Numbered from the stretch's first letter, positions 3,859-62,478 are shown. The stretch is 64,000 nucleotides of DNA from an uncultured Candidatus Saccharibacteria bacterium (GCA_964359735.1 CAYHTZ010000005.1:3882-67881), one strand, 5' to 3'. Numbers and translations are program-made. Notes: generated from the sequence alone by a model not told the origin.

Positions 3859-4393
3859 TTTGACAGGGGTTCTGATTATTGTGGGAGGAATATTGCTGAT
3901 CCTGAGAACCCCCTCTAGCTCCCCCTTGTCAGGGGGAGAGATTTCTTCTTCTCCTTTACCCTCCCTTGATAAGGGGAGGCTGGGAGGGGTTTCTGGAGAA
4001 ACCGTCTGCCCTGATTTCCAGGAAGGGGAAGTCACAGTGGGGGAGGTAGAACTTACCGTATCGCTAGCTAATACCCAGGCGGAGAAGACCAAAGGCCTCT
4101 CGGGCTGCAGCGAACTGCCTGAAAAAGCCGGCATGCTGTTTCCCTATAAACCCGCCAAAACCGTGACCTTTTGGATGAAAAATATGGTTATGCCCATCGA
4201 CATCGTCTGGATCCACGAAGGCCGGGTAATTGGGATCGAGCCCAATATTCCTGCTCCGACACCGGGTGTCCCCGAGAAAGAGCTGCCTCAATACGCCTCT
4301 CCGGGAAGCGTAGATGCTGTTCTCGAAATCAAAGCCGGAGGTGCTGAGGAATACGGCATTGTACAAGGCACTGAAATTTCTTGGAATAATTGA
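3830..4393 (+). CDS. DUF192 (COG1430) family protein with N-terminal signal-anchor; carries an in-frame palindromic repeat insertion
   Basis: N-terminal TM (LIASLTGVLIIVGGILLIL). C-terminal region matches DUF192 (MLFPYKPAKTVTFWMKNMVMPIDIVWI). Residues ~25-55 (SSSPLSGGEISSSPLPSLDKGRLGGVSG) are encoded by repeat copy A. Confidence 0.6.
   Translation: MRAGKLLIASLTGVLIIVGGILLILRTPSSSPLSGGEISSSPLPSLDKGRLGGVSGETVCPDFQEGEVTVGEVELTVSLANTQAEKTKGLSGCSELPEKAGMLFPYKPAKTVTFWMKNMVMPIDIVWIHEGRVIGIEPNIPAPTPGVPEKELPQYASPGSVDAVLEIKAGGAEEYGIVQGTEISWNN
3906..3993 (+). repeat. MITE/RPE-like palindromic repeat, copy A (orientation as copy D), in-frame inside CDS
   Basis: gaaccccct...cccccttgtcaggggga...ccctcccttgataaggggagg...gggaggggtttc. 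Two internal hairpins and terminal inverted repeats (GAAACCCC / GGGGTTTC) shared with copies at 40964, 58185 and 62403. Confidence 0.8.
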
Positions 4394-4447
4394 CAATCAA
4401 TTTGAAATCCTCTACACATTACGCATTACTCATCACGCGTTACTTTT

Positions 4448-4765
4448 ATGAAATTGGCCGTTATTAAAACAGGTGGCAAGCAGTACCTCGTGGGGGAGGG
4501 AACAAAAGTGAAGGTGGAAAAGCTCTCTCAGAAGGAGGGCAAAGCCGTCGCCTTTCCCGATGTACTCATGACGGTCACGGACAAGGCCGTAACTTTGGGC
4601 GAACCTGATGTAGATGCCGCCAAGGTAGAAGGCAAAGTTGTGCGCCACGGTCGCCGCGAGAAGGTCTTTGGCGTCAAAATGAAAGCCAAGAAACGCGAAC
4701 GCAAATACTTCGGTCACAAGCAGTGGTTCACTGAGGTTGAAATTACGAAAATTACTACTCGTTAA
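4448..4765 (+). CDS. rplU: 50S ribosomal protein L21
   Basis: MKLAVIKTGGKQYLVGEG... is a typical L21 N-terminus; length 105 aa. Confidence 0.9.
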   Translation: MKLAVIKTGGKQYLVGEGTKVKVEKLSQKEGKAVAFPDVLMTVTDKAVTLGEPDVDAAKVEGKVVRHGRREKVFGVKMKAKKRERKYFGHKQWFTEVEITKITTR

Positions 4766-5379
4766 TCGCGAGCAGTTTCCAGAACTTTCCGGCCCTCAAA
4801 CGCGGCGCCAAGGGTGAGAGCATCAGCGAATTCAATATCGCCTCCAGTAGGCAGCCCTCTAGCGAGCCGACTCACGGTGATGCCTTTATTCGGCAAGTGC
4901 TTCAGAATGTGCCGCGCCGTCGCCTCGCCTTCTAAATTTTGATCCAGCGCAATGATCAATTCTTCCAGAGAAGGCGCCGTGAGCCGGCGGGTTAGCTCTT
5001 CCAACGTTAGTTGCTCCGGCCCGATACCCTCCAGCGGGGAAAGCCCACCCCCCAGGACATGGTACAAGCCATGGTAGATATTCGTTTTCTCAATCGCTTC
5101 TACATCCAGCGGGTCTTCCACCACGCACAGCCGCCTCATATCCCGCGTGGCATCGCCACATATGGTACAGAGCTCCTTCTCCGCTAAGTTGAAGCACTGC
5201 TTACAAATGCGGACGTTCAGATGCAGGTTCTTGAGCGTTTGCGCAAATCGGTTTACCACCACAGATGGTTGCCGCAGGAGATGAATAGACAGGCGCTGCG
5301 CTGTTTTAGGGCCGATTCCGGGCAGCCGCCGGAGTTCCTCGCTTAAATCCCGCACCGCTTTAGGCAATGTGGAAGGCAT
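4762..5379 (-). CDS. recR: recombination protein RecR
   Basis: N-terminal helix-hairpin-helix LPGIGPKTAQRL; C4 zinc finger CKQC...CTIC; Toprim region; ~200 aa. Confidence 0.9.
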   Translation of the reverse strand: MPSTLPKAVRDLSEELRRLPGIGPKTAQRLSIHLLRQPSVVVNRFAQTLKNLHLNVRICKQCFNLAEKELCTICGDATRDMRRLCVVEDPLDVEAIEKTNIYHGLYHVLGGGLSPLEGIGPEQLTLEELTRRLTAPSLEELIIALDQNLEGEATARHILKHLPNKGITVSRLARGLPTGGDIEFADALTLGAAFEGRKVLETARD

Positions 5380-5446
5380 AAAGCCAGTCTAGCTGACTCC
5401 CCGGTGAGTGTCACCAGTAGGTGACTCTCCCGGGGTGTTAGTGGGT

Positions 5447-6859
5447 TTAAGCAGCAACTGTTTCCTCCGCCGGAATCTGTGCGTCGCTGTAGAACTCCTC
5501 TGGCTCCGCGAATGTGACCTGGCTGGTATGGAAGCGCAGGCTGACATCCCCCGTGGGTCCATTGCGATGCTTTTCAATCAGAAGATCTAAGTCTACCGCG
5601 GCCGATGCTTCTTCACCATTCCCCGGCTGGCGGTGGAGAAACATGACGATATCGGCGTCTTGTTCGATACTTCCGCTCTCACGCAAATCAGAAAGCTTAG
5701 GCCGCTGATCGACTCTCATCTCAATCGAGCGGTTAAGCTGAGAAAGCGCGATGATCGGCACATTCAGCTCAATAGCCAGCTTCTTGAGACTGCGGGAGAT
5801 ATCCGATACTTCCTGTACTCGGTTATCTTGATACCGGCTCGATTCCATGAGCTGCAAATAATCAATAACCAGTAATCCCAATCCAAATTCGGCTTGCAGC
5901 CGCCGCGCCATCGTGCGCATACCCATCACGTTGTTGGAAGCGTGATCATCGATGTAAATAGGGAGTTGGCTGAGTTCTCCCATCGCTTGTCCTAAACGGG
6001 AGAAGTCATCGAATTCCTCTGCTCCTGATTCCAACCGCCCAGTCCTAAGCTTCCAAAGATCGACATGGGCGTGAGCAGCTAAGAGCCGGTCTACCAGCTG
6101 GTCGCGCGACATTTCCAGGCTGAAAATCCCCACCGGCGTACCCGCACTCGCGGCGTGCCTCGCAAAATCGAGAGCCAATGTGCTTTTACCCACGCTCGGG
6201 CGTGCTGCCAATACAATCAAATCAGACTTCTGCCACCCGGCGAGCTTGAGATCCAGCTGCTTGAAGCCTGTGGGCACCCCGCGCAGGGCTGATTCACCCT
6301 TCTGCAACTTGTCGATACGGGCAAAGGCGTCCTCCAATGCTTCAGAGAGCCGGGTAAACTTTTGGTGCTTGTAATCCTTCGATACGGAAAACAGCGTCTG
6401 CTCTGCGCTATCTAACGTAGTTTGTACGTCATCCGCCTCAGTAAACCCCATTTCGGTTATATCGGCCGCGGCCGATATAAGCCGGCGCCGCGTCGCTGTG
6501 CCTTGCACGATCCGTGCGTAGTGGACCACGTGTCCGGCCGTAGGCACCACTGTGGCTAAGTGGGTGACAGCCACTTCTCCTCCCACTTCTTCAAGCTCCC
6601 CGCGCTCTTTCAGGCGGTGAATCACCGACAGCACGTCGATCGGCTCGCCCGAGTTATACAATTCCACCATCGCGGCATAGATAGTTTGGTGACGCGTCTT
6701 ATAAAAATCTTCGGCGCCCAAAAAATCGGCAATTTTTACGATGGCATTCTTGTCTACCATAAGGCTGCCCAGCACAGATTCTTCCGCCTCGTAGCTATGC
6801 GGGGGAATACGCAAGCCTTCGGACATTTCTTTCATTTTGGACATACGGCCTCGTCTCAT
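5447..6859 (-). CDS. dnaB: replicative DNA helicase DnaB
   Basis: N-terminal PPHSYEAEESVLGSLM; Walker A GARPSVGKST; LLVIDYLQLM motif. True start may be the ATG for MSKMKEM about 15 nt downstream of the called start. Confidence 0.9.
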   Translation of the reverse strand: MRRGRMSKMKEMSEGLRIPPHSYEAEESVLGSLMVDKNAIVKIADFLGAEDFYKTRHQTIYAAMVELYNSGEPIDVLSVIHRLKERGELEEVGGEVAVTHLATVVPTAGHVVHYARIVQGTATRRRLISAAADITEMGFTEADDVQTTLDSAEQTLFSVSKDYKHQKFTRLSEALEDAFARIDKLQKGESALRGVPTGFKQLDLKLAGWQKSDLIVLAARPSVGKSTLALDFARHAASAGTPVGIFSLEMSRDQLVDRLLAAHAHVDLWKLRTGRLESGAEEFDDFSRLGQAMGELSQLPIYIDDHASNNVMGMRTMARRLQAEFGLGLLVIDYLQLMESSRYQDNRVQEVSDISRSLKKLAIELNVPIIALSQLNRSIEMRVDQRPKLSDLRESGSIEQDADIVMFLHRQPGNGEEASAAVDLDLLIEKHRNGPTGDVSLRFHTSQVTFAEPEEFYSDAQIPAEETVAA

Positions 6860-6924
6860 AGGGAAGGATGGTACCCCTCACTATACGCTGTCCGAATCTT
6901 CCTTGCGAGTGGATAAGGTGTGCA

Positions 6925-8349
6925 TTATCCCTTCATTACCCTGGGTCCGGTGCCGGTGTCTTCTACACGATACCCTTTGGCTTCAATGGCGCCCCGCAGT
7001 TCATCCGCCCGGTCAAATTGCTTGTTTTGGCGAGCTGTCTCACGCGCTTCCGCAAGCTGCTTGATCTCCTCTGGAATAGTTTCACCCTCAATCTCTGCTT
7101 CAAGTGGGGCTACCACGCCGACGACCTTATCAAGACGACGAAGGGTCGCTAATACCTCCCCAACAAAATCTGGAGAGGTATAAAAAGAATCAGGCATGCT
7201 ATTTGAGACACTAATAAAGTTTAGAAGGGCGGCAAGTGCACTGGGCGTGTTTAAATCATCTGCGATATGTCTGGAGAATAGAAGGATTGTCTTTTCATCA
7301 GCTTGAGCCGTCTTTGCGCTAACTTCTTTAAGTCGACGTAATAGTTGTTTAATGCTGTCTAGATTTTTTTGAGCTTGATGCATTGCCTCCCAGGAAAAAT
7401 CCAGGGGCGTGCGGTAGTGGCCGCCAAACACCAGCAAGCGGAAGGCGAGAGGGGAGAACCCTTTTTCTTTCAGCGAGTCCACTGTGAGCTGCTCGCCAGC
7501 GCGCTTCGCAAGCTTCTGCCCCTGTAATTTTAGGAAGGCATTATGCATCCACAGACGCACGAACGGCTTGCCGGTGGCCCCTTCTGATTGCGCGATTTCG
7601 TTCTCATGGTGGGGGAAACGGTTGTCTTCGCCGCCGGTGTGGATATCGATTTCACTGTCGAGGTACTTCATACTCATCGCAGAACACTCGATATGCCAGC
7701 CGGGGTAGCCCTTGCCCCAGGGTGAATCCCATTGCTGCAGGTGAGTGGGGTCATTCAGCTTCCACAAGGCGAAGTCGGCCGGATGCCTTTTTTCTTCCCG
7801 CACCTCTACCCGAGCCCCCGCGGCGATTTTTTCTAACGTATTACCCGAAAGTTTTCCGTACTCCGGAAAAGACTTCACGTCAAAATAGATTCCGCTCGGT
7901 GTCTGATACGCATGGCCGCGCGCCAGCAGCGCCTTCGTTATCTCAATCATCTCCGGAATATGCTGTGTCGCGCGCGGGTAGAGGTGGGCAGGTTGAATGT
8001 TAAGCGCGGATAAATCTTGAAAGTATTCTTGCGTAACCTGCTCAGCAATTTGCGCGGGCGTGCGTTTTTGTTCCTTCGCTGTTTTCTCTAACTTATCCTC
8101 GCCGGCATCAATATCATCCTGAGTGAGGTGGCCTACGTCTGTAATATTCGTAATGTCGCGCACCTCGTAACCGAAATATTCGAGAGATCGCCGCAGAAAA
8201 TCGGCAAATAAGAACCGGCGCATATTTCCGAGATGGGGGCGTTTGTACACCGTGGGTCCGCAATTATACATACGCACTTTACCACGCTCTTTCGATTGGA
8301 ATGGCTCAACCCTTTTGGTGAGAGAGTTGTAGAAACGTAGTTCAGTCAT
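6925..8349 (-). CDS. cysS: cysteinyl-tRNA synthetase
   Basis: MYNCGPTVY..HLGN (HIGH-class motif) and a KMSKS-like KLSGN; ~474 aa, typical for CysRS. Confidence 0.85.
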   Translation of the reverse strand: MTELRFYNSLTKRVEPFQSKERGKVRMYNCGPTVYKRPHLGNMRRFLFADFLRRSLEYFGYEVRDITNITDVGHLTQDDIDAGEDKLEKTAKEQKRTPAQIAEQVTQEYFQDLSALNIQPAHLYPRATQHIPEMIEITKALLARGHAYQTPSGIYFDVKSFPEYGKLSGNTLEKIAAGARVEVREEKRHPADFALWKLNDPTHLQQWDSPWGKGYPGWHIECSAMSMKYLDSEIDIHTGGEDNRFPHHENEIAQSEGATGKPFVRLWMHNAFLKLQGQKLAKRAGEQLTVDSLKEKGFSPLAFRLLVFGGHYRTPLDFSWEAMHQAQKNLDSIKQLLRRLKEVSAKTAQADEKTILLFSRHIADDLNTPSALAALLNFISVSNSMPDSFYTSPDFVGEVLATLRRLDKVVGVVAPLEAEIEGETIPEEIKQLAEARETARQNKQFDRADELRGAIEAKGYRVEDTGTGPRVMKG

Positions 8350-8470
8350 GAGTGCAGCGTAAATGACCCCTCCCCGGCACTCAAGTGCCGGACCTCCCCT
8401 TCGTAAGGGGCGGCAAATTTGCTCCCCCTGCCGGAGGGGGAGTCGCCGTCTGCGGCGGAAGGGGTGGGAG

Positions 8471-9379
8471 TCAGAATATGCGTTTCCCTCGAAAGCGCCA
8501 CAACGTGGCCACCAGCATCCCCACGGCTGCTATGAAAAGCACCCAAAACACGATCACATCAACTCGGGAGGCATGTACTGCCCGCGGAGAGAAGAAGGGA
8601 TCGACTAAAATCATGATAGGAATGGTCAAGATTGAATATAGGGTAAGCACCCGGAGCAGCTGATTTTCTTTATGCTGGAGCAGCGCATAGTTTGTTTTAC
8701 CTAACTGCTTCACCGCCTCCGCCAGACTCTCCAGAATATCCCACAGCTTCGCCATCTGGGCTGCCTGCCGCCGCCACGCCTCTCGCGAGTCTTCCTGGAC
8801 TAAGGCATGTGTCGGCGCCTCATAAAAAAGCCGCCGCTGAGGCCGGATCACGCGCCGGAAGTCCATCACATCCCGAGTGAGCAGGGCAACTTCCTCTACC
8901 ATTTTTCGCTCATTCCCGTGGAAGACAGCGTCCTCGGCAATTTCAATATGCTTATTGAGTTTTTCCAGCTTATCAAAGGCAGTGGAGAGCAGCCGGCGGA
9001 TGAGGTAGAGCGCCAAGGGGAGAGCCGTTGCACCAAAGTACTCTTCTCGCTGTTCGGCTTGCTTTTCCAGCTCTTCGTAAAGAGAATCCAACACGACCAG
9101 TGGCTCAAAGTGGAGCGTAGAAACAATACCTTCCCGCACCACCAGGTATAGGTTAACTCCCCGCGTCACGCGCTCTACCCGCTGAAACACAGGCACCTGA
9201 ATGAGGATCAGAACATAGCCCGCCCGGGCCACGACTTCTGGCCGCTGCCGTTCTTGCGCAATGAATTCAGCATCCAGCGGCGAAAGGTTGCTTTCTCGCA
9301 CGAACTCAGCCAGCTCCTCGGGAGAAGGCTCGGCTAAAACATGCCACGTTAGCTCTTTTGAGGTAAGCACCCTCCTCAT
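8471..9379 (-). CDS. CorA-like divalent cation transporter family protein (atypical; GMN signature absent)
   Basis: Cytoplasmic N-domain resembling CorA (acidic funnel region) plus two C-terminal TM helices. The loop between the helices reads LVDPFF where canonical CorA has YGMNF. Confidence 0.5.
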   Translation of the reverse strand: MRRVLTSKELTWHVLAEPSPEELAEFVRESNLSPLDAEFIAQERQRPEVVARAGYVLILIQVPVFQRVERVTRGVNLYLVVREGIVSTLHFEPLVVLDSLYEELEKQAEQREEYFGATALPLALYLIRRLLSTAFDKLEKLNKHIEIAEDAVFHGNERKMVEEVALLTRDVMDFRRVIRPQRRLFYEAPTHALVQEDSREAWRRQAAQMAKLWDILESLAEAVKQLGKTNYALLQHKENQLLRVLTLYSILTIPIMILVDPFFSPRAVHASRVDVIVFWVLFIAAVGMLVATLWRFRGKRIF

Positions 9380-9405
9380 GTACTATTGAGTATATCACTT
9401 TTTCT

Positions 9406-10599: not shown

Positions 10600-10603
10600 G
10601 CCT

Positions 10604-10631
10604 TGACGGCGCTCATTCTCACGATATAGTT
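10604..10631 (+). promoter_or_regulatory. sigma70-like promoter for the hrcA-grpE-dnaK-dnaJ operon
   Basis: TTGACG - 16 nt - TATAGT located immediately 5' of the CIRCE operator. Confidence 0.4.
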
Positions 10632-10632
10632 C

Positions 10633-10664
10633 TTACTAGCACTCTCGTCTGAAGAGTGCTAGTA
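10633..10664 (+). promoter_or_regulatory. CIRCE operator (HrcA binding site)
   Basis: ttaCTAGCACTC-tcgtctgaa-GAGTGCTAGta is a 9-bp inverted repeat with 9-nt spacer, near-identical to the CIRCE consensus TTAGCACTC-N9-GAGTGCTAA, 8 nt upstream of the hrcA ATG. Confidence 0.75.
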
Positions 10665-10671
10665 TTTTCCT

Positions 10672-11331: not shown

Positions 11332-11334
11332 AGT

Positions 11335-11838: not shown

Positions 11839-11840
11839 TT

Positions 11841-14532: not shown

Positions 14533-14537
14533 CCTCT

Positions 14538-40290: not shown

Positions 40291-41052
40291 TTACTTCCCT
40301 CGCTCAGCAGAGTTGGCTAAGAGGCGCAGCTGTTCGTAATTTTCGCGAGGGTCGCCCTGCCCGAAGATAGATGTATTTGCACAAAGAATTGTGGCCCCGG
40401 CCCGGACATAATCAGGCACAGATTCTTTTTTCACTCCCCCATCCACCGCAATGGGAATGCCGGGATGCTTGTCGTAAAACTGTCCGATCTTGTTATAGAC
40501 AATGGGGTTAATAGGCTGGTTAGCGAATCCTGGGTTGTAGCCCATGAATAGAACGTAATCAAGTAACGTGAGTTGCTCCTCAAGGCGTTGATTTGGGCTT
40601 TCCGGGTTTACGGCTAACGCTAACTGTGATTGGGTTTTCTCCCGCAGCGTTTCGTAGACAAATTTTACGCCATTTGTTCCTTCAAATGCTTCTAAGTGAA
40701 ATACTACTCGGGCCGGATTCAAATCAATGATGTCATCAACGAAATTCCCTGGTGTGTGCACCATCATATGCAGCTCAACCTTGCTGCTCTCTGGGAGCCG
40801 CTTAAACCGTTTTATGTCGCGAAAAGTCCCATCTCCGGCAAAAACTCCATCCGTAATATCGATTTGAATGTGATCCGGCAGTTTATAAATCTTTTTCCAA
40901 TCTTCCTCAATTCCCTCCCATGTTTTGCGGAGAATGGCAGGGACAATCTCGATCGGGGGTAAAGAAATCCCTCCCAACCTCCCTTTATCAAGGGAGGGGA
41001 TTTTTTCAGCAAGTCCACTTGATAAGGGGGATTTAGGGGGTTTTGTTTTCAT
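40291..41052 (-). CDS. rpe: ribulose-phosphate 3-epimerase family protein; N-terminus encoded by repeat copy B
   Basis: IQIDITDGVF..., HLMVHTP..., VVFHLEAF motifs of the RPE (beta/alpha)8 family. The ATG at 41052 is followed immediately by the repeat, giving MKTKPPKSPLSSGLAEKIPSLDKGRLGGISLPP before the conserved IEIVPAIL start. Confidence 0.65.
   Translation of the reverse strand: MKTKPPKSPLSSGLAEKIPSLDKGRLGGISLPPIEIVPAILRKTWEGIEEDWKKIYKLPDHIQIDITDGVFAGDGTFRDIKRFKRLPESSKVELHMMVHTPGNFVDDIIDLNPARVVFHLEAFEGTNGVKFVYETLREKTQSQLALAVNPESPNQRLEEQLTLLDYVLFMGYNPGFANQPINPIVYNKIGQFYDKHPGIPIAVDGGVKKESVPDYVRAGATILCANTSIFGQGDPRENYEQLRLLANSAERGK
40964..41044 (-). repeat. MITE/RPE-like palindromic repeat, copy B (inverted orientation, most diverged)
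   Basis: gaaatccctcccaacctccctttatcaagggagggg...cacttgataagggggatttagggggtttt is the reverse complement of the family consensus. Lies in the overlap of the rpiB 3' end and the rpe 5' end. Confidence 0.7.
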
Positions 41053-41485
41053 ACTCTTCAATGGTCTTAATGCGCCGAATATGTCTTTCTTCCCCGCTGA
41101 ATGGAGTCTCAAGGAAGACTTTTAAAATCTTCTTGGCTTCTTTTTCCGAGAGCCAATCGCCGGACAGGACCACCACGTTAGCATCGTTCTTCTCTCTGGC
41201 GAGCCCGGCCGAATTCTCGTCGTGGACGGTGATGGCGCGGACACCTTTAACCTTGTTAGCGGCTATGACCATACCAGCCGCTGATCGGCAGGCAAGGATC
41301 CCAATTGCATCCCTTGTCTTGCCGACTTTTTCTGCTACCGCGAGTGCAAATGGTGGGTAATCGTCCCCTTTGTCATATGTTGTATTCCCTAAATCTTCCC
41401 AGGTGTGTCCCCACTCCACAAGCCACCTTTTGATACGCTCCTTCAGCTCAAATCCCCCATGGTCCGCTCCTAGGTAAACATGCAT
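41033..41485 (-). CDS. rpiB: ribose-5-phosphate isomerase B
   Basis: MHVYLGADHGGFELKE... with Cys/His active-site pattern; 150 aa. Confidence 0.85.
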   Translation of the reverse strand: MHVYLGADHGGFELKERIKRWLVEWGHTWEDLGNTTYDKGDDYPPFALAVAEKVGKTRDAIGILACRSAAGMVIAANKVKGVRAITVHDENSAGLAREKNDANVVVLSGDWLSEKEAKKILKVFLETPFSGEERHIRRIKTIEEYENKTP

Positions 41486-54019: not shown

Positions 54020-54030
54020 CAGAACCCTCT

Positions 54031-55698: not shown

Positions 55699-55801
55699 TA
55701 CCTCATCCGGCCTATGGCCGGCTTCTCCTTGAGAAGGAGAAGCACCTCTCCTTACGAAGGAGAGGTCGACAGAAGGTCGGGTGAGGTGATAGCCTAGTAG
55801 C

Positions 55802-57190
55802 ATGAACCCCCTCCAAAAAACTGACCCCGAATTCTACGAAATCCTGCAAAAGGAGGAGGAACGCCAGCAAACAAATCTGTCGATGATTGCTTCGGAAAAT
55901 ATCTTCTCTCCAGCTGTACACGAGGCCGTGGGCTCAGTTTTTAGCCACAAATATTCTGAGGGTAATATGGGGGCTCGCTACTACGAGGGCAACCAGTTCG
56001 TAGACGAAATGGAAGCTTTAGCTGTTCAGCGTGCGCGCAAACTTTTTAGACTCCCCGATGATTGGGATGTAAACGTTCAAGCACTTTCGGGATGCAACGC
56101 GAACTTAGCTGTTTACTTAGCTGTCTTGGAGCCGGGAGACACTTTAATGGCGATGTACTTGCCCGATGGTGGTCATCTTTCTCATGGATGGTCATATGAA
56201 CCGGATGCCGACAAGCGCGAAGCTGGCAAAAATACCCCTGTGTATTTGGGGGGTAGCCGTAAAGTAAACATTACCTCCAAGTTGTTTCGTTCGATTCAGT
56301 ATAAAACGGATCCTGATACAAGAGTGTTTGACTATGACGAGATTGAGAAGATTGCAAAAAAGTATAAACCGAAATTGATCATTACCGGCGGCACCGCCTA
56401 TCCCCGTAACATTGATTATGAGCGTATGCGGCAGATTGCTGACAGCGTCGAGGCACTTTACATGGCAGATATTGCTCATGAAGCCGGCCTAGTGGCTGCT
56501 GGCGTCGTCCCCTCTCCTGTTGGCATTGCAGATATTGTTACTATGACCACCCACAAAACCCTTCGCTCTGGTCGTGGTGCAATCATTCTAGCCCGCCAGG
56601 ATCTCATGAAGAAGATTAATCGAGGAGTATTGCCTGGCTTACAAGGAGGCCCGCACAATCACAATATTGCGGGGATTTGCGTGGGTCTAGGTGAAGCGCT
56701 GCGCCCTGAATTTGCTTTGTATGCCCGACAGATCCTCGCCAATGCCGAATACTTAGCTGATCAGCTCGTCCACTATGATTTCAATTTGGTCTCAGGCGGG
56801 ACAGATAAACACCTCGTTCTCATTGATCTGACTAGTAAGCCTCTCCTAGGCAAGAAATACGCCCGCGCTCTAAATTGGGCAGGAATTGTGGCGAACTACA
56901 GCACTATGCCAGGCGACACGCGTCCTCCCGCTGACCCATCTGCATTACGTGTTGGCACTCCTCTAGCGACTACCCGCGGTATGAAAGAGAAAGAAATGGT
57001 TAAGGTTGCGTCCTGGATGAATGAAGTTATGGAGGTTGCAGCTCAATGGAAAGATCTGGAATTCGCCGAGTTCGAAGAAGCCGTGAAAAATTCCCCTAAT
57101 ATTGCCCGGGTAGCTTCCGAAGTGCGCTCGCTGTGCCAGAAATTCCCTCTCAAAATTGAAGCTAAAGAAAGAGCACGCGCACGCGCCTGA
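55802..57190 (+). CDS. glyA: serine hydroxymethyltransferase
   Basis: SHKYSEGNMGARYYEGN, PLP-lysine region TTHKTLRSGRGA; 462 aa with a small insertion. Confidence 0.95.
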   Translation: MNPLQKTDPEFYEILQKEEERQQTNLSMIASENIFSPAVHEAVGSVFSHKYSEGNMGARYYEGNQFVDEMEALAVQRARKLFRLPDDWDVNVQALSGCNANLAVYLAVLEPGDTLMAMYLPDGGHLSHGWSYEPDADKREAGKNTPVYLGGSRKVNITSKLFRSIQYKTDPDTRVFDYDEIEKIAKKYKPKLIITGGTAYPRNIDYERMRQIADSVEALYMADIAHEAGLVAAGVVPSPVGIADIVTMTTHKTLRSGRGAIILARQDLMKKINRGVLPGLQGGPHNHNIAGICVGLGEALRPEFALYARQILANAEYLADQLVHYDFNLVSGGTDKHLVLIDLTSKPLLGKKYARALNWAGIVANYSTMPGDTRPPADPSALRVGTPLATTRGMKEKEMVKVASWMNEVMEVAAQWKDLEFAEFEEAVKNSPNIARVASEVRSLCQKFPLKIEAKERARARA

Positions 57191-57223
57191 GCAACGAAGT
57201 TAAGAATCGGCTATAATGGCCGA

Positions 57224-58186
57224 ATGGAGGCTCATTCCTTCGTGTCTGCTCGCCAAGTGGGGTTCGATGTGGAAGAGGCACAAAGCGTCTTGGCTCGGCT
57301 GTCCGCCAGCTGGCGGAGACGTCCGCGCCTCGTCAAACCTATTTTGGATAATGTCTCCTTTACCTTGAACCAAGGTGATTGGGTAGCCCTCTACGGCGGG
57401 GCCGGGGCTGGCAAGACCACGTTGCTGCGCTTGCTCACCGGAGTGATCAAGCCTAGCCGCGGGCATGTCACCGTAAACGGCAAAGCAGCTCACGAACACA
57501 CGGGTTTAGCCGCCGGCTACGTTTCCCCCGAAGAACATGAAGATATCCCAGAAAACGTAGGCAAGATTCTCCGCACCTTTGGAGCCACTCACGGCATCGG
57601 CAATCTACCTTCCCGCATTGGAGCAGTTACCGAAGCTCTCTCGCTGCGGCATCTTATGACCCGCCGGGCCGATACACTTTCGGCCACCGAACGCATCAAG
57701 GTAAATCTCGCCCGGGCTGCACTCTCTGACGCCCCGCTGATTTTGTTAGACGACTGCAACGGTCTGCTAGGGGCGACAGCGCTTTCGGCGATTCTTTTTC
57801 AGCTGTTCCAGCGCCGTACCGTCATTATTGCTACTCGCTCTGCCGCGTTCGCCGAGGACCTAAATTTGCCAGTGTTGTTGCTTCATCAGGGTACACTTGC
57901 CTGCTCCGGCACCTGTAACGAAATCGCCGACCGCCTCTCCGCTCCCCGTGTCATGGATGTTTGGGTGGAAGGCATGCGGTACGACATGTTCCGCACCATC
58001 AAGAAGCACCCCGGTGTGGCCCAAGTGCTGCTATTACCCGATGGCCGCTTCCACGGGCAGCGTCTCAGGGTTACCCTAAAATCCTCTCATCACTTGCCAG
58101 CTCTCTACGACTTGGTGAGCCGCGTACCCCTCATCCGGATAGAAGAGCTGCCTGTGAATCTCGAAGATATTCTCTCGCGGCTTTGA
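57224..58186 (+). CDS. ABC-ATPase-like protein with degenerate signature and Walker B motifs (probable pseudo-ATPase)
   Basis: Walker A GGAGAGKTT is intact, but the ABC signature LSGGQ is replaced by LSATER and Walker B is LILLDD-C with no catalytic Glu. Convergent with ftsX. Confidence 0.55.
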   Translation: MEAHSFVSARQVGFDVEEAQSVLARLSASWRRRPRLVKPILDNVSFTLNQGDWVALYGGAGAGKTTLLRLLTGVIKPSRGHVTVNGKAAHEHTGLAAGYVSPEEHEDIPENVGKILRTFGATHGIGNLPSRIGAVTEALSLRHLMTRRADTLSATERIKVNLARAALSDAPLILLDDCNGLLGATALSAILFQLFQRRTVIIATRSAAFAEDLNLPVLLLHQGTLACSGTCNEIADRLSAPRVMDVWVEGMRYDMFRTIKKHPGVAQVLLLPDGRFHGQRLRVTLKSSHHLPALYDLVSRVPLIRIEELPVNLEDILSRL

Positions 58187-58261
58187 AAACCCCTCCTATC
58201 CTCCCCTTATCAAGGGAGGGACTCTTGCTTTCCCCCTGATAAGGGGGAACAAGGGGGTTTC
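58185..58261 (-). repeat. MITE/RPE-like palindromic repeat, copy C (inverted orientation), exactly filling the gap between two convergent stop codons
   Basis: gaaaacccctcctatcctccccttatcaagggagggactcttgctttccccctgataagggggaacaagggggtttc. Its reverse complement is ~90% identical to copy D. Confidence 0.85.
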
Positions 58262-59187
58262 TATCTTTTCCGTAGGTATCGGCGGATCGCAATAACACTG
58301 GAGAAGGTTGCGAGCCCTACCGCTGCCGCAATTTGTAAGCCCACAATGGTTGGCCAGGATTGAACGGCATATTCAAAGACATCAAATTGCACCGTATCGC
58401 TAAAGAAGAAATCTTGCAGCCGGGGGCCAATGGCGTTGAGTACCGGGTACATAATCGCGGACGATGCAGCCACAGCCAAGAGAGCCACGAACATAGCCTC
58501 GATTACAAATGGTCCGCGGATAAACCAATTCGAAGCCCCCACGAGGCGCATGATATCGATTTCCTCGCGAAAGCTGTATATTGCCAGCCTGACGGTGTTG
58601 AACATAATGAGCACCACGAGCGCGGCAAATGTCACGGTTACCACCAGCGCCCCATTGCGCACCGTGTTCATGACTTCGATCAGCCGGGCAATAACTGGCC
58701 GTAAATCTTGGAAGTTCACGCTCTCAATAAAAGGTTCATATTTTTCTGACTCCAGCTGGGTGGCGATATTCTGGTAGAAGCGAGGGTCAGAGGATACGAC
58801 GAACATGCTAGCCGGCAACGGGTTCGCTTCGAGTTCCCGCAAGGAATCCTCAATAAATGGCTCATCGGTATGGCGCTGCTTAAAGCTTTCTAAGGCCTCC
58901 TCGCTACTTACTACGCGCACTTCTTCCACGTCTTCCCGCGACTCTATTTCCTGCGCGATGGCCTTGATTTGCGCCTCAGTCACGGTGTCCTTAAAGGTGG
59001 CAGAGAGGTCCACCTTTTGCTCAATCGTGCGCAGCACTTGCGACCCGAATACGTTAGCAAAGTAGAGAAGGAGCATCATCAGGAGCGTGATTGTCATAAC
59101 GACCAGCGTGGCCAGCGACAGCCATACATTCCGCCAGAAATTCTGAAACGCCGATTTAAAAACTCTGAGGAAAGAAACTCCGATCAT
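58261..59187 (-). CDS. ftsX: cell division ABC transporter permease FtsX
   Basis: Four-TM FtsX topology with large periplasmic loop; 4-nt overlap with the upstream ftsE. Confidence 0.8.
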   Translation of the reverse strand: MIGVSFLRVFKSAFQNFWRNVWLSLATLVVMTITLLMMLLLYFANVFGSQVLRTIEQKVDLSATFKDTVTEAQIKAIAQEIESREDVEEVRVVSSEEALESFKQRHTDEPFIEDSLRELEANPLPASMFVVSSDPRFYQNIATQLESEKYEPFIESVNFQDLRPVIARLIEVMNTVRNGALVVTVTFAALVVLIMFNTVRLAIYSFREEIDIMRLVGASNWFIRGPFVIEAMFVALLAVAASSAIMYPVLNAIGPRLQDFFFSDTVQFDVFEYAVQSWPTIVGLQIAAAVGLATFSSVIAIRRYLRKR

Positions 59188-59873
59188 ATTTTGTACGTGC
59201 CGCCTTGCTGATCGGAAACAAGTTTGCCACCTGCCAAAGTTATAACTCGTTTCTTGATGGCGTTGACAATATCATCGTTGTGAGTAGCTAGGAGCACCGT
59301 TGTCCCCAGTTTGTTGATCTTAAGCAGCAACTGCACGATATCCCAGGAATGGAGCGCATCTAGATTGCCCGTGGGCTCATCCGCCAGTAATATTTGCGGC
59401 TTGTAGGCCAAGGCCCGGGCAATAGACACACGCTGTTTCTCTCCGCCCGACATCTCATTTGGGTATTTATCTGCTTTGTCCAACAAATTCACTAGCTTTA
59501 GAATATGTGGCACGGTTTTGCGGATTTCGCGCGTGGCTGCTCCCCCTACCTCCATGGCGAAGGCCACGTTCTCGAAAGCAGTCCGCTTGGGTAAGAGTTT
59601 AAAATCTTGAAATACCGTTCCAATCTGCCGCCGGAGGTACGGTACTTGCCACCGTTTAATCCGAGTGATGTCCCATCCATCAATGATAAGCTTGCCCTCA
59701 GATGGCTGTTCCTCGGCGGAGAGCAGCTTCAGCATGGTAGACTTCCCCGCCCCGCTTTGCCCCACGATTGAAACGAAATCCCCGGTAGGGATCGTGAGGG
59801 TCACGCTATGGAGAGCTTCCACTCCCATCGCAAATGCCTTCGAAACTGCTTGAAACGTTATCATTCCCCGCAA
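59184..59873 (-). CDS. ftsE: cell division ABC transporter ATP-binding protein FtsE
   Basis: Walker A GQSGAGKST, signature LSGGEKQRV, Walker B ILLADEPTGNLD. Confidence 0.9.
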   Translation of the reverse strand: MRGMITFQAVSKAFAMGVEALHSVTLTIPTGDFVSIVGQSGAGKSTMLKLLSAEEQPSEGKLIIDGWDITRIKRWQVPYLRRQIGTVFQDFKLLPKRTAFENVAFAMEVGGAATREIRKTVPHILKLVNLLDKADKYPNEMSGGEKQRVSIARALAYKPQILLADEPTGNLDALHSWDIVQLLLKINKLGTTVLLATHNDDIVNAIKKRVITLAGGKLVSDQQGGTYKI

Positions 59874-60957
59874 TTATAGCACATCAATAAATGCGTCTAA
59901 TTTGCCATTTAGCACACCTTCGGCGTCTTTGTCCTCTTTCTTGGTCCGATGGTCCTTTACGAGCTTATACGGGTGAAGTACGTAGGAACGAATCTGGTTG
60001 CCCCAGGCCGCTTCTTTAACTTCACCCTTTAAATCTTTGATAGTTTTTGCCTGCTGCTCCTCAGCCAGTTTCTGCAGCTTGGCGGCTAATACAGAGAGCG
60101 CCATCGCCTTGTTCTGCCCTTGGGAGCGTTCTTGGTCAACCTTCACCGTAATACCTGTGGGGATGTGCTTAACCCGCACCGCCGAACTCGTTTTATTGAC
60201 GTGTTGCCCGCCGGCGCCGCCGCTCCGAAAAGCATCGATCTCTAAATCATCTGGGTCAATCACGGGAGCTTCGCGGGCGGGTAACTTCGGCAGCACCTCC
60301 ACCCGAGCAAATGATGTTTGGCGCAAGTGATCCGCATTGAAAGGAGATTGCCTCACCAGCCGGTGCACCCCGTGCTCTTCTTGCAGCGAACCATACACGT
60401 ATGACCCGCGCACCTCGAACGTTGTATGTTTTATTCCTGCCTCCTCCCCCGGTTGCCGTTCCAGCGCATGAGTCTGCCAACCTTGGGAGGTTGCAAAGCG
60501 CAAATACATCCGCTCAAGCATCTCGGCCCAATCTTGTGCATCTGTACCCCCTGCCCCCGCGGCAATTGTGACAATCGCATCATTTTTGTCGTGCGGGCCG
60601 GCAAATCGCAGTACCTTCTCTTTGTCGGCGACCGCTGCGGCTACCTGGGCAATTTCTTTTTCAATATCGCTTGCCACAGTAGCTTCGGCCTCTTGTTGAG
60701 CCATGGAGATGAATTCCCCCGCCTCCGTGAGCCGCCGCCGCGCGTTCTCAAAGAATGCTAATCCCTCTGTAATTTCCGCGAGTTCCCGGGTGACTGCCTG
60801 GGCGCTCTCGTTATCGCGCCAGAAATCTGGCTGCTGGGCCGCCGCTGCAAGTTCTCTGTGTTTGTCTCGCAGCTTTTCTACCTCAAAGACGGTCGGCCAG
60901 GGTTGCCAGCCGCCGTTCAAGGTCTGAAATTCGATTGCGAATCTCCTTCGTTTCCAT
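59874..60957 (-). CDS. prfB: peptide chain release factor 2 with programmed +1 ribosomal frameshift (frame 0: ATG at 60957 to CTT-TGA at 60888-60883; +1 frame continues to 59874)
   Basis: SPF tripeptide (RQSPFNADH), GGQ motif (GGAGGQHVNKT). Frame-0 leader METKEIRNRISDLERRLATLADRL ends at CTT TGA G; the +1 frame then reads EVEKLRDKHRELAAAAQQPDFW, collinear with E. coli RF2 around its frameshift site. Confidence 0.8.
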
Positions 60958-60979
60958 ACGTGTTAAGTATACAGGATTC

Positions 60980-61054
60980 TGGAGCCAACCGAGGGGATCG
61001 AACCCTCAACCTGCACGTTACGAATGTGCTGCTCTACCATTGAGCTAGGTTGGC
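60980..61054 (-). tRNA. tRNA-Thr (anticodon CGT), CCA encoded
   Basis: Reverse complement GCCAACCTAGCTCAATGGTAGAGCAGCACATTCGTAACGTGCAGGTTGAGGGTTCGATCCCCTCGGTTGGCTCCA; anticodon loop TTCGTAA. Confidence 0.85.
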
Positions 61055-61090
61055 AGTAGTTTGCTCTATAACACAAAAGGAATATTTGTG

Positions 61091-62182
61091 CTATTGGGGA
61101 CGCAGACCAAGTAATCGGAAAAGCTGTTTGACATAATCCAGCTTGCGATCCCCCCTCGCCAAATCATATGCATTCCTCCCTATCTTGCCTGTCAAAGGAT
61201 TAAACCCCTTTCCTTTTCTCCAAGAGATACTTTTCGCGCTCAATTCGATTGTGATGGCACCCATATTGCCCGCGACCGCACCCCCGCAGGCGCTGCGAAC
61301 CTGATCAGTCCACTGATCCATACGACCCTGACTTGACAGTACAGTGATTTTTAATCCCTCTTTGGATTCTTTCTCATATCTCACGGCGACAGCAAGATTA
61401 GGCAGCCCTTGCGGCCCACCTCCCACACAACATAGCAGCTTCACGCCTAATGCGGTGTCGAGACGTGGGTCCGGGAGAAACGCACGAACGTCATGGTCAT
61501 GGAATATCAAGCGCAATACTTCGAGAGCTGCCACCGGGGCCGTCAGCTGGGCACACTGGTCCCGAAAATCCGTCGTGAGATGTCCTTCCTCAAGTTCTGG
61601 CGCGTAGAAAGGGGGGAGTGGCTCCCTAGCCAACCCTCCCACTACGGTCGCGTGATGATTCGCTGGCCGGTACCTTTTCATCCTCAGAAGCCCGTACAGC
61701 AGGACCACTGATTGCACCGCATCTGGTCGCGCCTCATCTTTCTTAGTGAAAGTCAGGACTACTCGCTGCCCTAAGAGTTTAGCTGCGGCATCGTAATACT
61801 CTTGCTTTTGCTTTTTGTCCGGCTCCACCCATAACCCTAAAGTTGCTCGTGCGTCTTCGATGTACTCAAGTGTTCGCGCGACAACGACACACCACACCAT
61901 TTGTTGCACCCATACCAGCGGGTCACTTGACTGTGCTGCCTCTTCGTAGGGGAGAAGCCGACTTTCAGCGGCTGACGCAAGTTTTTGGAACTGAGCGATT
62001 TGATGATGCGGGTTTGAGGGGAGATGACGCACATGTTCTTCCTCTAGTGCGTCTAACTCGTAAAAGATCTGCCAATATACTTTCTGCTTGAGATCTTCTA
62101 GAGAAAGTTCCTGCCGAGGGGTATCGGGAATGGCTACATATGGCACTGGGCCTCTATGCCACGCGCTTTCGTGACTCTGCAT
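61091..62182 (-). CDS. hypothetical protein (363 aa), unknown family
   Basis: Long clean ORF between tRNA-Thr and ogt; Gly-rich segments (CCVGGGPQGLP, CGGAVAGNMGA) but no motif I can assign. The called start overlaps ogt by 28 nt, so the start is uncertain. Confidence 0.4.
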   Translation of the reverse strand: MQSHESAWHRGPVPYVAIPDTPRQELSLEDLKQKVYWQIFYELDALEEEHVRHLPSNPHHQIAQFQKLASAAESRLLPYEEAAQSSDPLVWVQQMVWCVVVARTLEYIEDARATLGLWVEPDKKQKQEYYDAAAKLLGQRVVLTFTKKDEARPDAVQSVVLLYGLLRMKRYRPANHHATVVGGLAREPLPPFYAPELEEGHLTTDFRDQCAQLTAPVAALEVLRLIFHDHDVRAFLPDPRLDTALGVKLLCCVGGGPQGLPNLAVAVRYEKESKEGLKITVLSSQGRMDQWTDQVRSACGGAVAGNMGAITIELSAKSISWRKGKGFNPLTGKIGRNAYDLARGDRKLDYVKQLFRLLGLRPQ

Positions 62183-62399
62183 ATAGAAGTCTACGCTTGC
62201 GTTCCCTCCCGCGATTATACCCTCCTAGTTTCCCATCGCTCCGTATTACGCGGTGACAAGGAATGTCTGTGTTGTAGTTGCGGTTCATGATGTTTCCCAC
62301 CGCCCGTGCCGCCCCCGGCCGCCCCGCTGCCTCTGCTACTTCTCCATACGTCATGGTTTTTCCGGCGGGAATCTTCTTTACAACCTCAAGAACACGCAT
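62154..62399 (-). CDS. ogt: methylated-DNA--protein-cysteine methyltransferase (Ogt/MGMT), C-terminal-domain-only short form
   Basis: PCHRVIRSDGKLGGY active-site motif and the preceding helix-turn-helix (TYGEVAEAAGRPGAARAVG). Start placed at the ATG at 62399 (MRVLEVV). The ORF track's longer form reads through repeat copy D. Confidence 0.7.
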   Translation of the reverse strand: MRVLEVVKKIPAGKTMTYGEVAEAAGRPGAARAVGNIMNRNYNTDIPCHRVIRSDGKLGGYNRGRERKRRLLYAESRKRVA

Positions 62400-62402
62400 A
62401 CT

Positions 62403-62478
62403 GAAACCCCCTCGTTCCCCCTTATCAGGGGGAAGCAAGAGTTCCTTCCTTGATAAGGGGAGGATAGGAGGGGTTTTC
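62403..62478 (+). repeat. MITE/RPE-like palindromic repeat, copy D (reference orientation), between the ogt start codon and the htrA stop codon
   Basis: gaaaccccctcgttcccccttatcagggggaagcaagagttccttccttgataaggggaggataggaggggttttc. Terminal inverted repeats GAAACCCC/GGGGTTTC and two internal hairpins (ttccccct-tatc-agggggaa; cctycc-ttgataa-ggggagg). Confidence 0.85.

What the first reader, a model, noticed from the sequence alone, without database searches (positions are those of the whole stretch)
3906..62478. Family of four ~76-88 bp palindromic MITE/RPE-like repeats; two lie in-frame and stop-free inside genes
Four copies (3906-3993, 40964-41044, 58185-58261, 62403-62478) share terminal inverted repeats GAAACCCC...GGGGTTTC and two internal hairpins (ttccccct-NNNN-agggggaa and cctccc-ttgataa-ggggagg). 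Copies C and D are ~90% identical in opposite orientation, so both orientations occur. The copies differ in how they sit relative to genes. Copy A is embedded between the signal anchor and the DUF192 domain of 3830-4393. Copy B begins immediately after the rpe ATG and encodes its first ~30 residues. Copy C exactly fills the 75-bp gap between the convergent stops of the ABC-like gene and ftsX. Copy D sits between the htrA stop codon and the ogt start codon. In A and B the element has the same orientation and frame relative to the host gene and encodes a similar peptide (SPLSxG...PSLDKGRLGG[IV]S). This parallels the Rickettsia palindromic elements, which insert in-frame into ORFs. An element family like this, on this kind of genome, is not something I can match to a described one.
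Basis: seen in the sequence. Interest (0 to 1): 0.8.

Follow-up and report, generated by a model that had tools for sequence, protein, structure and literature searches.

The report
Palindromic mobile repeats tied to DUF559 nucleases
Four (really six) small hairpin-forming repeats in this groundwater Patescibacteria genome are real, recently inserted mobile-type DNA, two of them translated as part of host proteins, and they belong to a family spread across many bacterial phyla that sits next to genes for a small nuclease of unknown function (DUF559).

Summary
Four 76-88 bp copies align; models built without a copy still find it (E 1e-12 to 4e-15). C and D are 95% identical. Each is a doublet of two inverted REP-like units. 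Two divergent elements of the same plan lie at 8362-8468 and 55702-55786.

The insertions are lineage-specific. Rpe orthologues at 82-85% identity lack the 25 extra residues. A DUF192 orthologue has an empty site. Copy B also supplies the rpiB stop codon. The encoded peptides model as disordered coil.

The family is not special to this genome. One hairpin 20-mer hit at least 118 places in species-representative genomes (about 4 expected by chance), in CPR lineages and several other phyla. About 6% of copies lie in-frame in real genes.

The only gene family that recurs beside the elements is DUF559, a Vsr-like PD-(D/E)XK endonuclease (12 of 118 loci). From the gene side, 47 of 69 metagenomic DUF559 genes have matching repeats on both flanks. 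A Hainich CPR contig has a doublet 8 nt before a DUF559 start codon.

Best reading: these are non-autonomous REPIN/MITE-like elements partnered with DUF559 nucleases. The association is shown; mobilisation is inferred. I found no paper describing the link.

The parts
3906..3993 (+). Copy A, 88 bp doublet with a 12-nt longer spacer. It is translated in-frame as residues about 27-55 of the DUF192 protein.
   Evidence: Sequence; alignment; translation. An orthologue has an empty site and another a decayed half-copy. The region is low-pLDDT coil between the TM helix and the domain.
40964..41044 (-). Copy B, 81 bp. It is translated as residues about 3-29 of Rpe and contains the stop codon of the upstream, overlapping rpiB.
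   Evidence: Rpe orthologues at 82-85% identity have 10-residue N-termini without it. The N-terminal 30 residues are low-pLDDT coil.
58185..58261 (-). Copy C, 77 bp. It fills the gap between the convergent stop codons of the ABC ATPase gene and ftsX.
   Evidence: It is 95% identical to D.
62403..62478 (+). Copy D, 76 bp. It lies between the htrA stop (62479-62481) and the ogt ATG (62397-62399). Its minus-strand end, GAGGGGGTTTC, lies 3 nt before the ATG, which places the purine-rich GAGGGGG run 7 nt upstream.
8362..8468 (.). Divergent element of the same plan: a closing stem ACCCCT/AGGGGT enclosing four hairpins. It fills the corA-cysS intergenic gap.
   Evidence: I11; nhmmer E 0.05; DNA fold z -4.0.
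55702..55786 (.). Divergent element of the same plan: a 12-bp closing stem plus two hairpins, CTTCTCCTTGAGAAGGAGAAG and CCTCTCCTTACGAAGGAGAGG. It fills the gap before glyA (SHMT).
   Evidence: I24; DNA fold z -7.6.
3830..4393 (+). Host gene of A: membrane-anchored DUF192 protein.
   Evidence: Pfam PF02643, E 4e-26; orthologue alignment.
40291..41052 (-). Host gene of B: ribulose-phosphate 3-epimerase.
   Evidence: Pfam PF00834; 270 homologues.
41033..41485 (-). rpiB. Its last three codons and its TAA stop (41033-41035) lie inside copy B.
57224..58186 (+). ABC ATPase gene ending at copy C.
58261..59187 (-). ftsX ending at copy C.
62154..62399 (-). Short ogt (DNA_binding_1 domain with the PCHR motif) starting 3 nt after copy D.
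62479..63780 (-). htrA ending directly at copy D.

Best explanation
The four repeats, plus two divergent relatives in the window, are non-autonomous copies of a REPIN/MITE-like palindromic element.

Anatomy. Each copy is a doublet of two inverted REP-like units. A unit is a terminal AAACCCC(C/T)C motif, 2-4 nt, then a hairpin with a pyrimidine (C-rich) 5' arm, a TTATCA/TGATAA-type loop and a G-rich 3' arm. The two units are joined by a 10-25-nt spacer.

Shown:
- The copies were gained recently in this lineage. Orthologous sites are empty, and C and D are 95% identical.
- The insertions leave no consistent target duplication.
- Copies survive inside genes because 3-4 of the 6 frames are stop-free and the encoded Pro/Gly/Ser-rich peptide sits in disordered tails or linkers.
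- Elsewhere the copies fill whole intergenic gaps.
- The family is pan-bacterial. Its gene-bearing members carry or abut a DUF559 (Vsr-like PD-(D/E)XK, 'EDxHD'-type) endonuclease gene, sometimes exactly in the spacer of a doublet.
- Gene and repeats occur together in distant phyla. This indicates horizontal transfer as one unit.

Inferred:
- The gene-less doublets are internal-deletion derivatives that a DUF559 nuclease, encoded elsewhere in the genome, acts on in trans. This would be analogous to REPINs and their RAYT. The nuclease would nick or cut the extruded hairpin or cruciform, which contains G:T wobble positions on one strand, and host replication or repair would complete the copying.
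- Intergenic copies secondarily act as mRNA 3' hairpins or partial terminators, and their GGAGG-rich ends act as ribosome-binding sites.
For: Family is real.

Folding: long hairpin as RNA, z -2.3 to -4.7. As DNA, a closing stem plus 2-4 hairpins.

Recent, lineage-specific insertion:
- Rpe orthologues at 82-85% identity have short N-termini, and the DNA alignment shows an empty rpiB/rpe junction.
- DUF192 has an empty site in L123 and a decayed half-copy in L120.
- Close relatives have no intact copy in about 40 kb.

Tolerance of intragenic copies: stop-free frames; low-pLDDT coil.

Superfamily:
- Most hits share the whole module or the whole doublet.
- In-frame copies lie in an Eco57I-type methylase, ArgRS, a molybdopterin oxidoreductase and an SDR.

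DUF559 link:
- It is the only non-housekeeping ORF cluster that recurs in the 118 loci. It is present in 12 loci, mostly within about 100 nt of an element or between units (about 330 nt away in L047).
- It is not a transposase.
- Pfam PF04480, E 1e-28 to 1e-34. E, D, H and D are among the invariant columns of the alignment.
- Gene-side test: 46 of 80 metagenomic DUF559 loci have a C-arm/G-arm hairpin within 220 nt, against 5 hits in 113 kb of distal flank.
- 47 of 69 loci have mutually matching up- and downstream flanks.
- CPR DUF559 proteins carry translated-element extensions such as ...PPLSGG..SPDKGRLGGV.
- In Hainich contig L210 a 75-nt doublet ends 8 nt before the DUF559 ATG, and it matches the window model at E 4e-13.
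- L207 holds a doublet-DUF559-ORF-doublet cassette.
- In L052 the gene sits in the doublet spacer.
- DUF559 proteins at 70-75% identity, with the same doublet, occur in MAGs labelled Deltaproteobacteria, Dongiaceae, Thermodesulfovibrio and Geobacter.
- E. coli ycjD also has such units at its 3' end.
Against: - No DUF559 gene lies in the 64-kb window, and I could not scan the rest of this genome. The partner for these particular copies is therefore unproven.
- Association does not show that DUF559 mobilises the repeats. A lone 110-aa Vsr-like nuclease has no known strand-transfer activity.
- The geometry varies: the gene may sit inside a doublet, after one doublet, or between two doublets in direct or inverted order. 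This fits a gene that lands in the repeats equally well.
- The terminator and RBS roles rest on sequence only. The simple terminator scan did not call the whole elements.
Confidence: 0.6

Rival explanations
1. The DUF559 genes are free-standing homing-type endonuclease genes that use the palindromic doublets as landing pads. They cut gene-less doublets and are copied in by repair. The doublets themselves would be spread by some other, unidentified machinery, or by recombination and replication slippage.
For: DUF559 shares its Pfam family with the EDxHD homing endonucleases. In L052 the gene sits exactly in the spacer of a doublet, like a homing gene that interrupts its own site. Many more doublets than DUF559 genes are seen. 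High within-genome similarity (C-D 95%) would fit gene conversion.
Against: This does not explain how doublets reach new, non-homologous sites such as the rpiB/rpe junction or the DUF192 linker. In most CPR and deltaproteobacterial loci the gene lies after or between complete doublets, not inside one. No other candidate mobilising gene recurs near the elements.
Confidence: 0.2
2. They are ordinary REPINs mobilised by a RAYT (IS200/IS605-type Y1 transposase) encoded elsewhere. The proximity of DUF559 is incidental.
For: The anatomy fits REPINs as described in PMC3116915 and PMC3337134: two inverted REP units plus a spacer, no target duplication, single units also present, strand-asymmetric folding.
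Against: The units have no GTAG or CGTC tag (tags as described in PMC3733652). No Y1-transposase-like ORF cluster recurs in 118 + 80 loci, whereas DUF559 does. According to the abstracts, REPIN-RAYT systems are mostly inherited vertically; here the same unit occurs across distant phyla. Two copies are intragenic.
Confidence: 0.1
3. They are IS-derived MITEs moved by a DDE transposase that recognises the GAAACCCC termini.
For: Terminal inverted repeats, small size, multiple copies and presence/absence at orthologous sites.
Against: There is no consistent target-site duplication at A-D; only A has a possible GAGAA/GAGAA. No transposase gene recurs between or beside units. Half-units are common on their own.
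Confidence: 0.05
4. They are not mobile. They are host-selected structural signals (bidirectional terminators or mRNA-stabilising hairpins) that resemble each other through common function.
For: C, D and the two divergent elements fill intergenic gaps exactly. They are GC-rich hairpins ending in T(3-4).
Against: Two copies sit inside coding sequence and are translated. Close orthologues lack them. The 95% identity of C and D, and a shared 20-mer across phyla at about 30 times chance, cannot come from convergence. The terminator scan did not call them.
Confidence: 0.05

Closest known systems
REPINs (REP doublets forming hairpins) and their RAYT transposases (Bertels & Rainey 2011, PMC3116915; PMC3337134)
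   Same: Two short palindromic units in inverted orientation around a spacer. The whole element folds as a long hairpin, and one strand folds better than the other. Single units also occur. No target duplication. Many gene-less copies and few copies of a small nuclease gene flanked by the same units.
   Different: The flanked gene is a roughly 110-130-aa Vsr-like PD-(D/E)XK nuclease (DUF559), not an HUH Y1 transposase. The units lack the GTAG/CGTC tag. The same unit sequence occurs in distant phyla, which implies horizontal spread. Copies are found inside coding genes.
Rickettsia palindromic elements (RPEs; as summarised in PMC10969869)
   Same: Palindromic repeats inserted in-frame into unrelated housekeeping genes. 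They encode a conserved peptide that the host protein tolerates.
   Different: These are shorter (76-88 bp against about 100-150 bp). I saw no sequence relationship. They are found in free-living and episymbiotic bacteria of many phyla, not one intracellular genus. A candidate partner gene is visible here, which I am not aware of for RPEs (the MITE review read mentions no endonuclease at all).
Bacterial MITEs (Correia, Chunjie, Nezha, ERIC and others; PMC10969869, PMC3184786)
   Same: Small, non-coding, terminal inverted repeats, multi-copy, able to supply regulatory signals and in-frame fusions.
   Different: No consistent target-site duplication and no parent IS with a DDE transposase. Chunjie of Geobacter is 178-235 bp with TIRs and direct repeats, so it is not this element.
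EDxHD / Vsr-like homing endonucleases (I-Bth0305I, PMC3239194; PMC3384342)
   Same: The partner protein falls in the same Pfam family (DUF559, PF04480). E, D, H and D are among the invariant columns of its alignment. It is a small selfish-looking gene with a patchy, cross-phylum distribution.
   Different: I-Bth0305I is intron-encoded and has extra NUMOD DNA-binding repeats. The proteins here are the bare catalytic domain, free-standing, and flanked by palindromic repeats rather than by intron or intein sequence.

Membership tests
REPIN / REP | Two REP units in inverted orientation separated by a short spacer, folding into one hairpin | tested here: met
   Alignment and folds. Left and right units are reverse-complement relatives (I5, I10).
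REPIN / REP | A RAYT (Y1 HUH transposase) gene flanked by the same REP units in the genome | tested here: not met
   No such ORF cluster recurs in the 118 element-bearing loci. The recurrent flanked gene is DUF559. The window's own genome could not be scanned beyond 64 kb.
REPIN / REP | Conserved GTAG or CGTC tetranucleotide at one end of the REP unit (PMC3733652) | tested here: not met
   Units end in AAACCCC / GGGGTTT. No GTAG or CGTC is present in the consensus.
REPIN / REP | Extragenic location | tested here: not met
   Two of four copies are translated inside genes. About 6% of sampled copies in other genomes lie in open frames, five of which were checked by Pfam as real genes.
MITE | Terminal inverted repeats, small size, no coding capacity of its own, several copies | tested here: met
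MITE | Target-site duplication flanking each copy | tested here: not met
   Flanks of A-D compared with each other and with empty orthologous sites show no shared duplication. Only A has a possible GAGAA repeat.
MITE | A parent IS with the same termini and a transposase | tested here: not met
   No transposase recurs near the elements. The gene-bearing versions carry DUF559.
Rickettsia palindromic elements | Palindromic repeat inserted in-frame in ORFs, encoding a conserved peptide compatible with the host fold | tested here: met
Rickettsia palindromic elements | Sequence homology to one of the RPE families | not tested
No Rfam family matched the elements.
Intrinsic (rho-independent) terminator | GC-rich hairpin directly followed by a U-tract at a gene's 3' end | tested here: inconclusive
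   C and D are strong hairpins followed by T3-4C. The consensus scan did not call the full elements, and its total count equals the shuffles. No transcript data.
DUF559 / Vsr-like (EDxHD) endonuclease (the partner gene, not in the window) | Match to PF04480 with E, D, H and D positions conserved, and homology to a solved Vsr-like fold | tested here: met
   Pfam E 1e-28 to 1e-34. Invariant columns include E63, D65, H69 and D76. PDB 3HRL at E 1e-17.
Homing endonuclease gene | Gene located within its own recognition site, in an intron, in an intein, or free-standing at a conserved locus, with demonstrated site-specific cleavage | not testable with these tools
   The gene sits in a doublet spacer in L052. 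Cleavage specificity needs biochemistry.

The most novel reading that the evidence does not exclude
DUF559 proteins (including E. coli YcjD and thousands of 'endonuclease domain-containing' proteins) are the dedicated nucleases of a pan-bacterial class of REP-like palindromic doublets. This would be a second REPIN-RAYT-type partnership built on a Vsr-like PD-(D/E)XK nuclease instead of an HUH transposase. It moves between phyla and seeds in-frame peptide insertions in housekeeping proteins, even in streamlined CPR genomes.
Probability: 0.4. Interest if true: 0.85.

Novelty: new variant of a known kind. Interest (0 to 1): 0.68.

Why it matters
Small palindromic repeats (REPs, REPINs, MITEs, RPEs) are common, but for most families the enzyme that makes them is unknown.

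This work does three things.

- It shows that even a streamlined Patescibacteria genome carries a recently active family that rewrites gene ends. It adds 25-30 residues to two proteins, replaces a stop codon, and fills intergenic gaps.
- It links the family, by two independent enrichment tests, to DUF559. DUF559 is a very widespread small nuclease with no assigned function, and E. coli YcjD is a member. That gives a directly testable function for a large domain of unknown function.
- It suggests a new nuclease-repeat partnership that spreads between phyla.

The family also matters for annotation. Many 'hypothetical proteins' and N- or C-terminal extensions rich in PLSGG/DKGRxGG are translated repeats.

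Tried and rejected
- Rfam (gathering threshold on the whole window; E-value mode on 58.1-62.6 kb): only tRNAs, no family for the elements.
- PLSDB plasmids, blastn with copy C: no match.
- Viral contigs: 4 hits, of which only 2 are true elements, so phages are not an obvious main vector.
- Target-site duplications: none consistent.
- Promoter and terminator consensus scan: no enrichment, and the whole elements were not called.
- Search for a DUF559 gene in the window by tblastn: none. The only hits were the element-encoded peptides.
- Search for any transposase recurring near the elements by all-vs-all ORF clustering: only ABC ATPases, sigma-54 regulators and housekeeping genes besides DUF559.
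- NCBIfam and PADLOC give DUF559 no functional or defence name.
- Literature (MITE + CPR, REPIN/RAYT, DUF559, EDxHD, COG2852, Nezha/Chunjie, RPE in-frame, Patescibacteria + REP): nothing describes this family or the DUF559-repeat link.
- Chunjie (Geobacter MITE) considered and rejected on size and direct repeats.
- Integron attC sites and Tn3-type TIRs considered from memory and rejected, because the terminal motifs and polarity do not fit.


Full report
OBSERVATION. Oriented alike, they align end to end, with 50 invariant columns. An independent repeat search returned the same pairs: a 75-nt C/D arm pair, and 30-36-nt arm pairs at 83-97% complementarity. The first nhmmer test used a model built from all four copies and was therefore circular, so I repeated it leaving copies out, withholding both C and D when either was tested. 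The withheld copies were still found at E = 4e-15 (A), 7e-14 (B), 3e-14 (C) and 1e-12 (D). Nothing else in 64 kb fell below E = 0.01 except reverse-strand self-matches. C and D are 95% identical. A and B are 70-76% identical to the others.

ANATOMY. Each copy is a doublet. The left unit is GAAACCCCC-nn(n)-TTCCCCCT TATC AGGGGGAA. A spacer of 10-25 nt follows. The right unit is CCTCCCTT GAT AAGGGGAGG-nnn-GGAGGGGTTT(T)C, roughly the reverse complement of the left unit. As RNA each copy folds into one long hairpin (-28 to -51 kcal/mol, z -2.3 to -4.7). The strand shown folds better than its complement because many pairs are G-U. With DNA parameters the favoured shape is a closing stem (AAACCCC/GGGGTTT) carrying the two unit hairpins.

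Two further elements share this plan but have diverged in sequence. The element at 8362-8468 has a closing stem plus four hairpins. The element at 55702-55786 has a 12-bp closing stem plus two hairpins (z -7.6). Each fills a whole intergenic gap.

Three or four of the six reading frames of each copy lack stop codons.

CONTEXT AND AGE. The window comes from a Hainich groundwater 0.1-um metagenome. NCBI lists the genome as a Patescibacteria MAG, and several of the closest named Rpe relatives are 'Candidatus Andersenbacteria'. Pfam confirms all the host genes.

- Copy A lies between the conserved N-terminal membrane helix and the DUF192 domain. Orthologues at 44-59% identity either lack the segment (L123 is an empty site), carry a decayed left half (L120), or carry unrelated linker.
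- Copy B lies 5 nt after the rpe ATG. Rpe orthologues at 82-85% identity have 10 residues before the conserved IVPAIL, whereas the window has 35.
- The DNA alignment shows that the ancestral arrangement was an rpiB stop overlapping the rpe start. The element landed in that overlap, so it now supplies the last codons and the TAA of rpiB as well as 25 residues of Rpe.
- One relative (L125) has a different half-unit at the same junction, so the site was hit at least twice.
- About 40 kb of contigs from close relatives hold no intact copy.
- AlphaFold models put the element-encoded residues in low-confidence coil: residues 26-65 of DUF192 and 1-30 of Rpe, next to well-folded domains.
- Copies C and D abut or overlap the neighbouring stop codons. 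D ends 3 nt from the ogt ATG, which leaves a GAGGGGG run 7 nt upstream of it.

BEYOND THE WINDOW. My estimate of chance expectation for 596 Gb on both strands is about 4. By record title the hosts include many CPR lineages (Saccharibacteria, Peribacteria, Gracilibacteria, Absconditabacterales, Nomurabacteria, Zambryskibacteria, Paceibacterota, SR1). They also include Geobacter and Desulfuromonadaceae, Thiothrix and Thiolinea, Gallionella and Sideroxydans, Acinetobacter, Thermodesulfovibrio and Bacillota. Several MAGs contribute 4-8 loci each. Most hits carry the full unit (hairpin, nnn, GGAGGGGTT). Many carry the full doublet with the same left/right asymmetry. Some have an extra small hairpin between the terminal motif and the main hairpin, as in the window's element at 8362-8468. 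Eleven of 124 matches lie in an open frame with at least 60 codons on each side. Five were checked and lie in real genes: an Eco57I-type methylase, ArgRS, a molybdopterin oxidoreductase, an SDR, and a Mu portal/F protein. In-frame residence is therefore a property of the whole superfamily.

THE PARTNER GENE. I clustered all ORFs of the 118 loci against each other. The largest cross-locus cluster was a small protein lying beside or between the units; its ORF often extended across them. The other recurrent clusters were ABC ATPases, sigma-54 regulators and housekeeping enzymes, and no transposase appeared. The small protein is DUF559 (PF04480, E 1e-28 to 1e-34), a Vsr-like PD-(D/E)XK nuclease. 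E, D, H and D are among the invariant columns of its alignment. It is homologous to PDB 3HRL. The same Pfam family contains the EDxHD homing endonucleases. tblastn found it in 12 of the 118 loci, mostly within about 100 nt of a unit (about 330 nt away in L047).

The arrangements vary:
- In L052 (Zambryskibacteria) the gene occupies the spacer of a doublet.
- In L036 and L053 it lies between two doublets.
- In several deltaproteobacterial and CPR loci one doublet ends a few nucleotides before the start codon.

I then tested the link from the gene side. An alignment of the DUF559 domain alone, with no repeat-encoded residues, retrieved 80 metagenomic loci.
- 46 of 80 have a C-arm/G-arm hairpin within 220 nt of the gene, against 5 hits in 113 kb of more distant flank.
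- In 47 of the 69 loci with both flanks available, the upstream and downstream 260 nt match each other (inverted in 41, direct in 27) beyond the best of 20 shuffles.

The repeats at these genes fall into several sequence subfamilies, but all have the same plan. A protein search seeded with a Saccharibacteria DUF559 showed that this subfamily is common in Patescibacteria. Many called proteins have N- or C-terminal extensions that are translated repeat, for example ...PPLSGG..SPDKGRLGGV. One of them (P0156) comes from the same aquifer as the window. There, a 75-nt doublet that matches the window model at E 4e-13 ends 8 nt before the ATG. Another (L207) is a doublet-DUF559-ORF-doublet cassette between argS and ileS. 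DUF559 proteins at 70-75% identity, each next to the same doublet, occur in MAGs labelled Deltaproteobacteria, Dongiaceae, Thermodesulfovibrio and Geobacter. This points to horizontal transfer of gene plus repeat as a unit. E. coli K-12 ycjD (DUF559) also has two inverted REP-like units at its 3' end, one of them overlapping its stop codon.

HOW IT MOST LIKELY WORKS.

Shown:
- The elements are real and recently gained.
- They are tolerated in ORFs.
- They belong to a cross-phylum family that is physically coupled to DUF559 genes.

Inferred:
- The gene-less doublets are deletion derivatives of DUF559-bearing elements and are acted on in trans by that nuclease. This is the logic of REPINs and RAYTs.
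- The substrate is probably the extruded hairpin or branched form. One strand of that form has G:T wobble positions, which is the kind of lesion that Vsr-type enzymes nick. This last point is my speculation from the established Vsr mechanism.
- How a nick or cut leads to a new copy at an unrelated site is unknown.
- Intergenic copies probably also serve as 3' hairpins or partial terminators, and as GGAGG donors. This rests on sequence only (one search was inconclusive).

The main rival is that DUF559 is a homing-type gene that merely lands in the doublets. The present data do not separate the two readings. No DUF559 gene is in the window, and the rest of the genome was out of reach.

COMPARISON AND NOVELTY. 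In anatomy the closest known kind is the REPIN. However, the RAYT partner, the GTAG/CGTC tag and the extragenic rule all fail the membership tests. MITE membership fails on target duplication and parent IS. The in-frame behaviour matches RPEs. Rfam, NCBIfam and PADLOC have no entry for the repeat or a function for the protein. Eight literature searches in the open-access library found no description of these repeats in CPR bacteria or of any DUF559-repeat association. That library misses most subscription journals, so prior description cannot be excluded. I therefore rate the finding as a new variant of a known kind.

CAVEATS.
- The hairpin regex and flank-matching thresholds were my own.
- The taxonomy of the loci is taken from record titles.
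- The chance expectation of about 4 assumes uniform base composition.

Noticed in passing
window 8362-8468: A fifth, divergent palindromic element fills the corA-cysS gap. It has a closing stem ACCCCT/AGGGGT and four internal hairpins. The plan matches variants seen in other CPR genomes that carry an extra small hairpin.
   Followed up: partly
window 55702-55786: A sixth, more divergent element lies in front of glyA. It has a 12-bp closing stem plus two T-substituted hairpins (CTTCTCCTT.., CCTCTCCTT..). The DNA fold has z -7.6.
   Followed up: partly
window 41033-41044: Copy B provides the last three codons and the TAA stop of rpiB. In relatives the rpiB stop overlaps the rpe start codon region directly.
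   Followed up: yes
L125:1975-2005: An Rpe orthologue (P0021, 85% identity) carries a different single repeat unit (encoding SPPYQGGDERGG) at the same rpiB/rpe junction. The same site has therefore been hit repeatedly.
   Followed up: partly
P0007 (DUF192 homologue), N-terminus: The called protein starts with ...RSPLPNWGEGRGEG..., a translated repeat of another subfamily (CTCTCCCC...GGGGAGAG type). The same type flanks some DUF559 genes and E. coli ycjD.
   Followed up: no
L113:1167-1600: A Peribacteria contig has three full elements in tandem at exactly 198-bp spacing. This array-like arrangement is unexplained.
   Followed up: no
L042:3-2360, L068:3937-5586, L082:4961-7780, L085:2578-3363, L035:3796-6231: Units or doublets lie in-frame inside an Eco57I-type methylase, ArgRS, a molybdopterin oxidoreductase and an SDR, and between the Mu portal and F domains, in other phyla.
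   Followed up: partly
L211:5204-5422 (E. coli K-12, 1351203-1351421): ycjD (DUF559) has two inverted REP-like units (ACCCTCTCCCCAGAGGGGCGAGGGG and its partner) at its 3' side. The second overlaps the ycjD stop codon. No repeat feature is annotated there in the record.
   Followed up: partly
L207:1415-2620: A cassette of doublet, DUF559, a 152-aa ORF with no Pfam match, and a second doublet is inserted between argS and ileS of a Patescibacteria MAG. The same gene pair recurs on contigs from other samples.
   Followed up: no
L212, L213 (IMG/VR contigs): Only two true elements were found in 2.9 million viral contigs, so phages do not look like the main carriers.
   Followed up: partly
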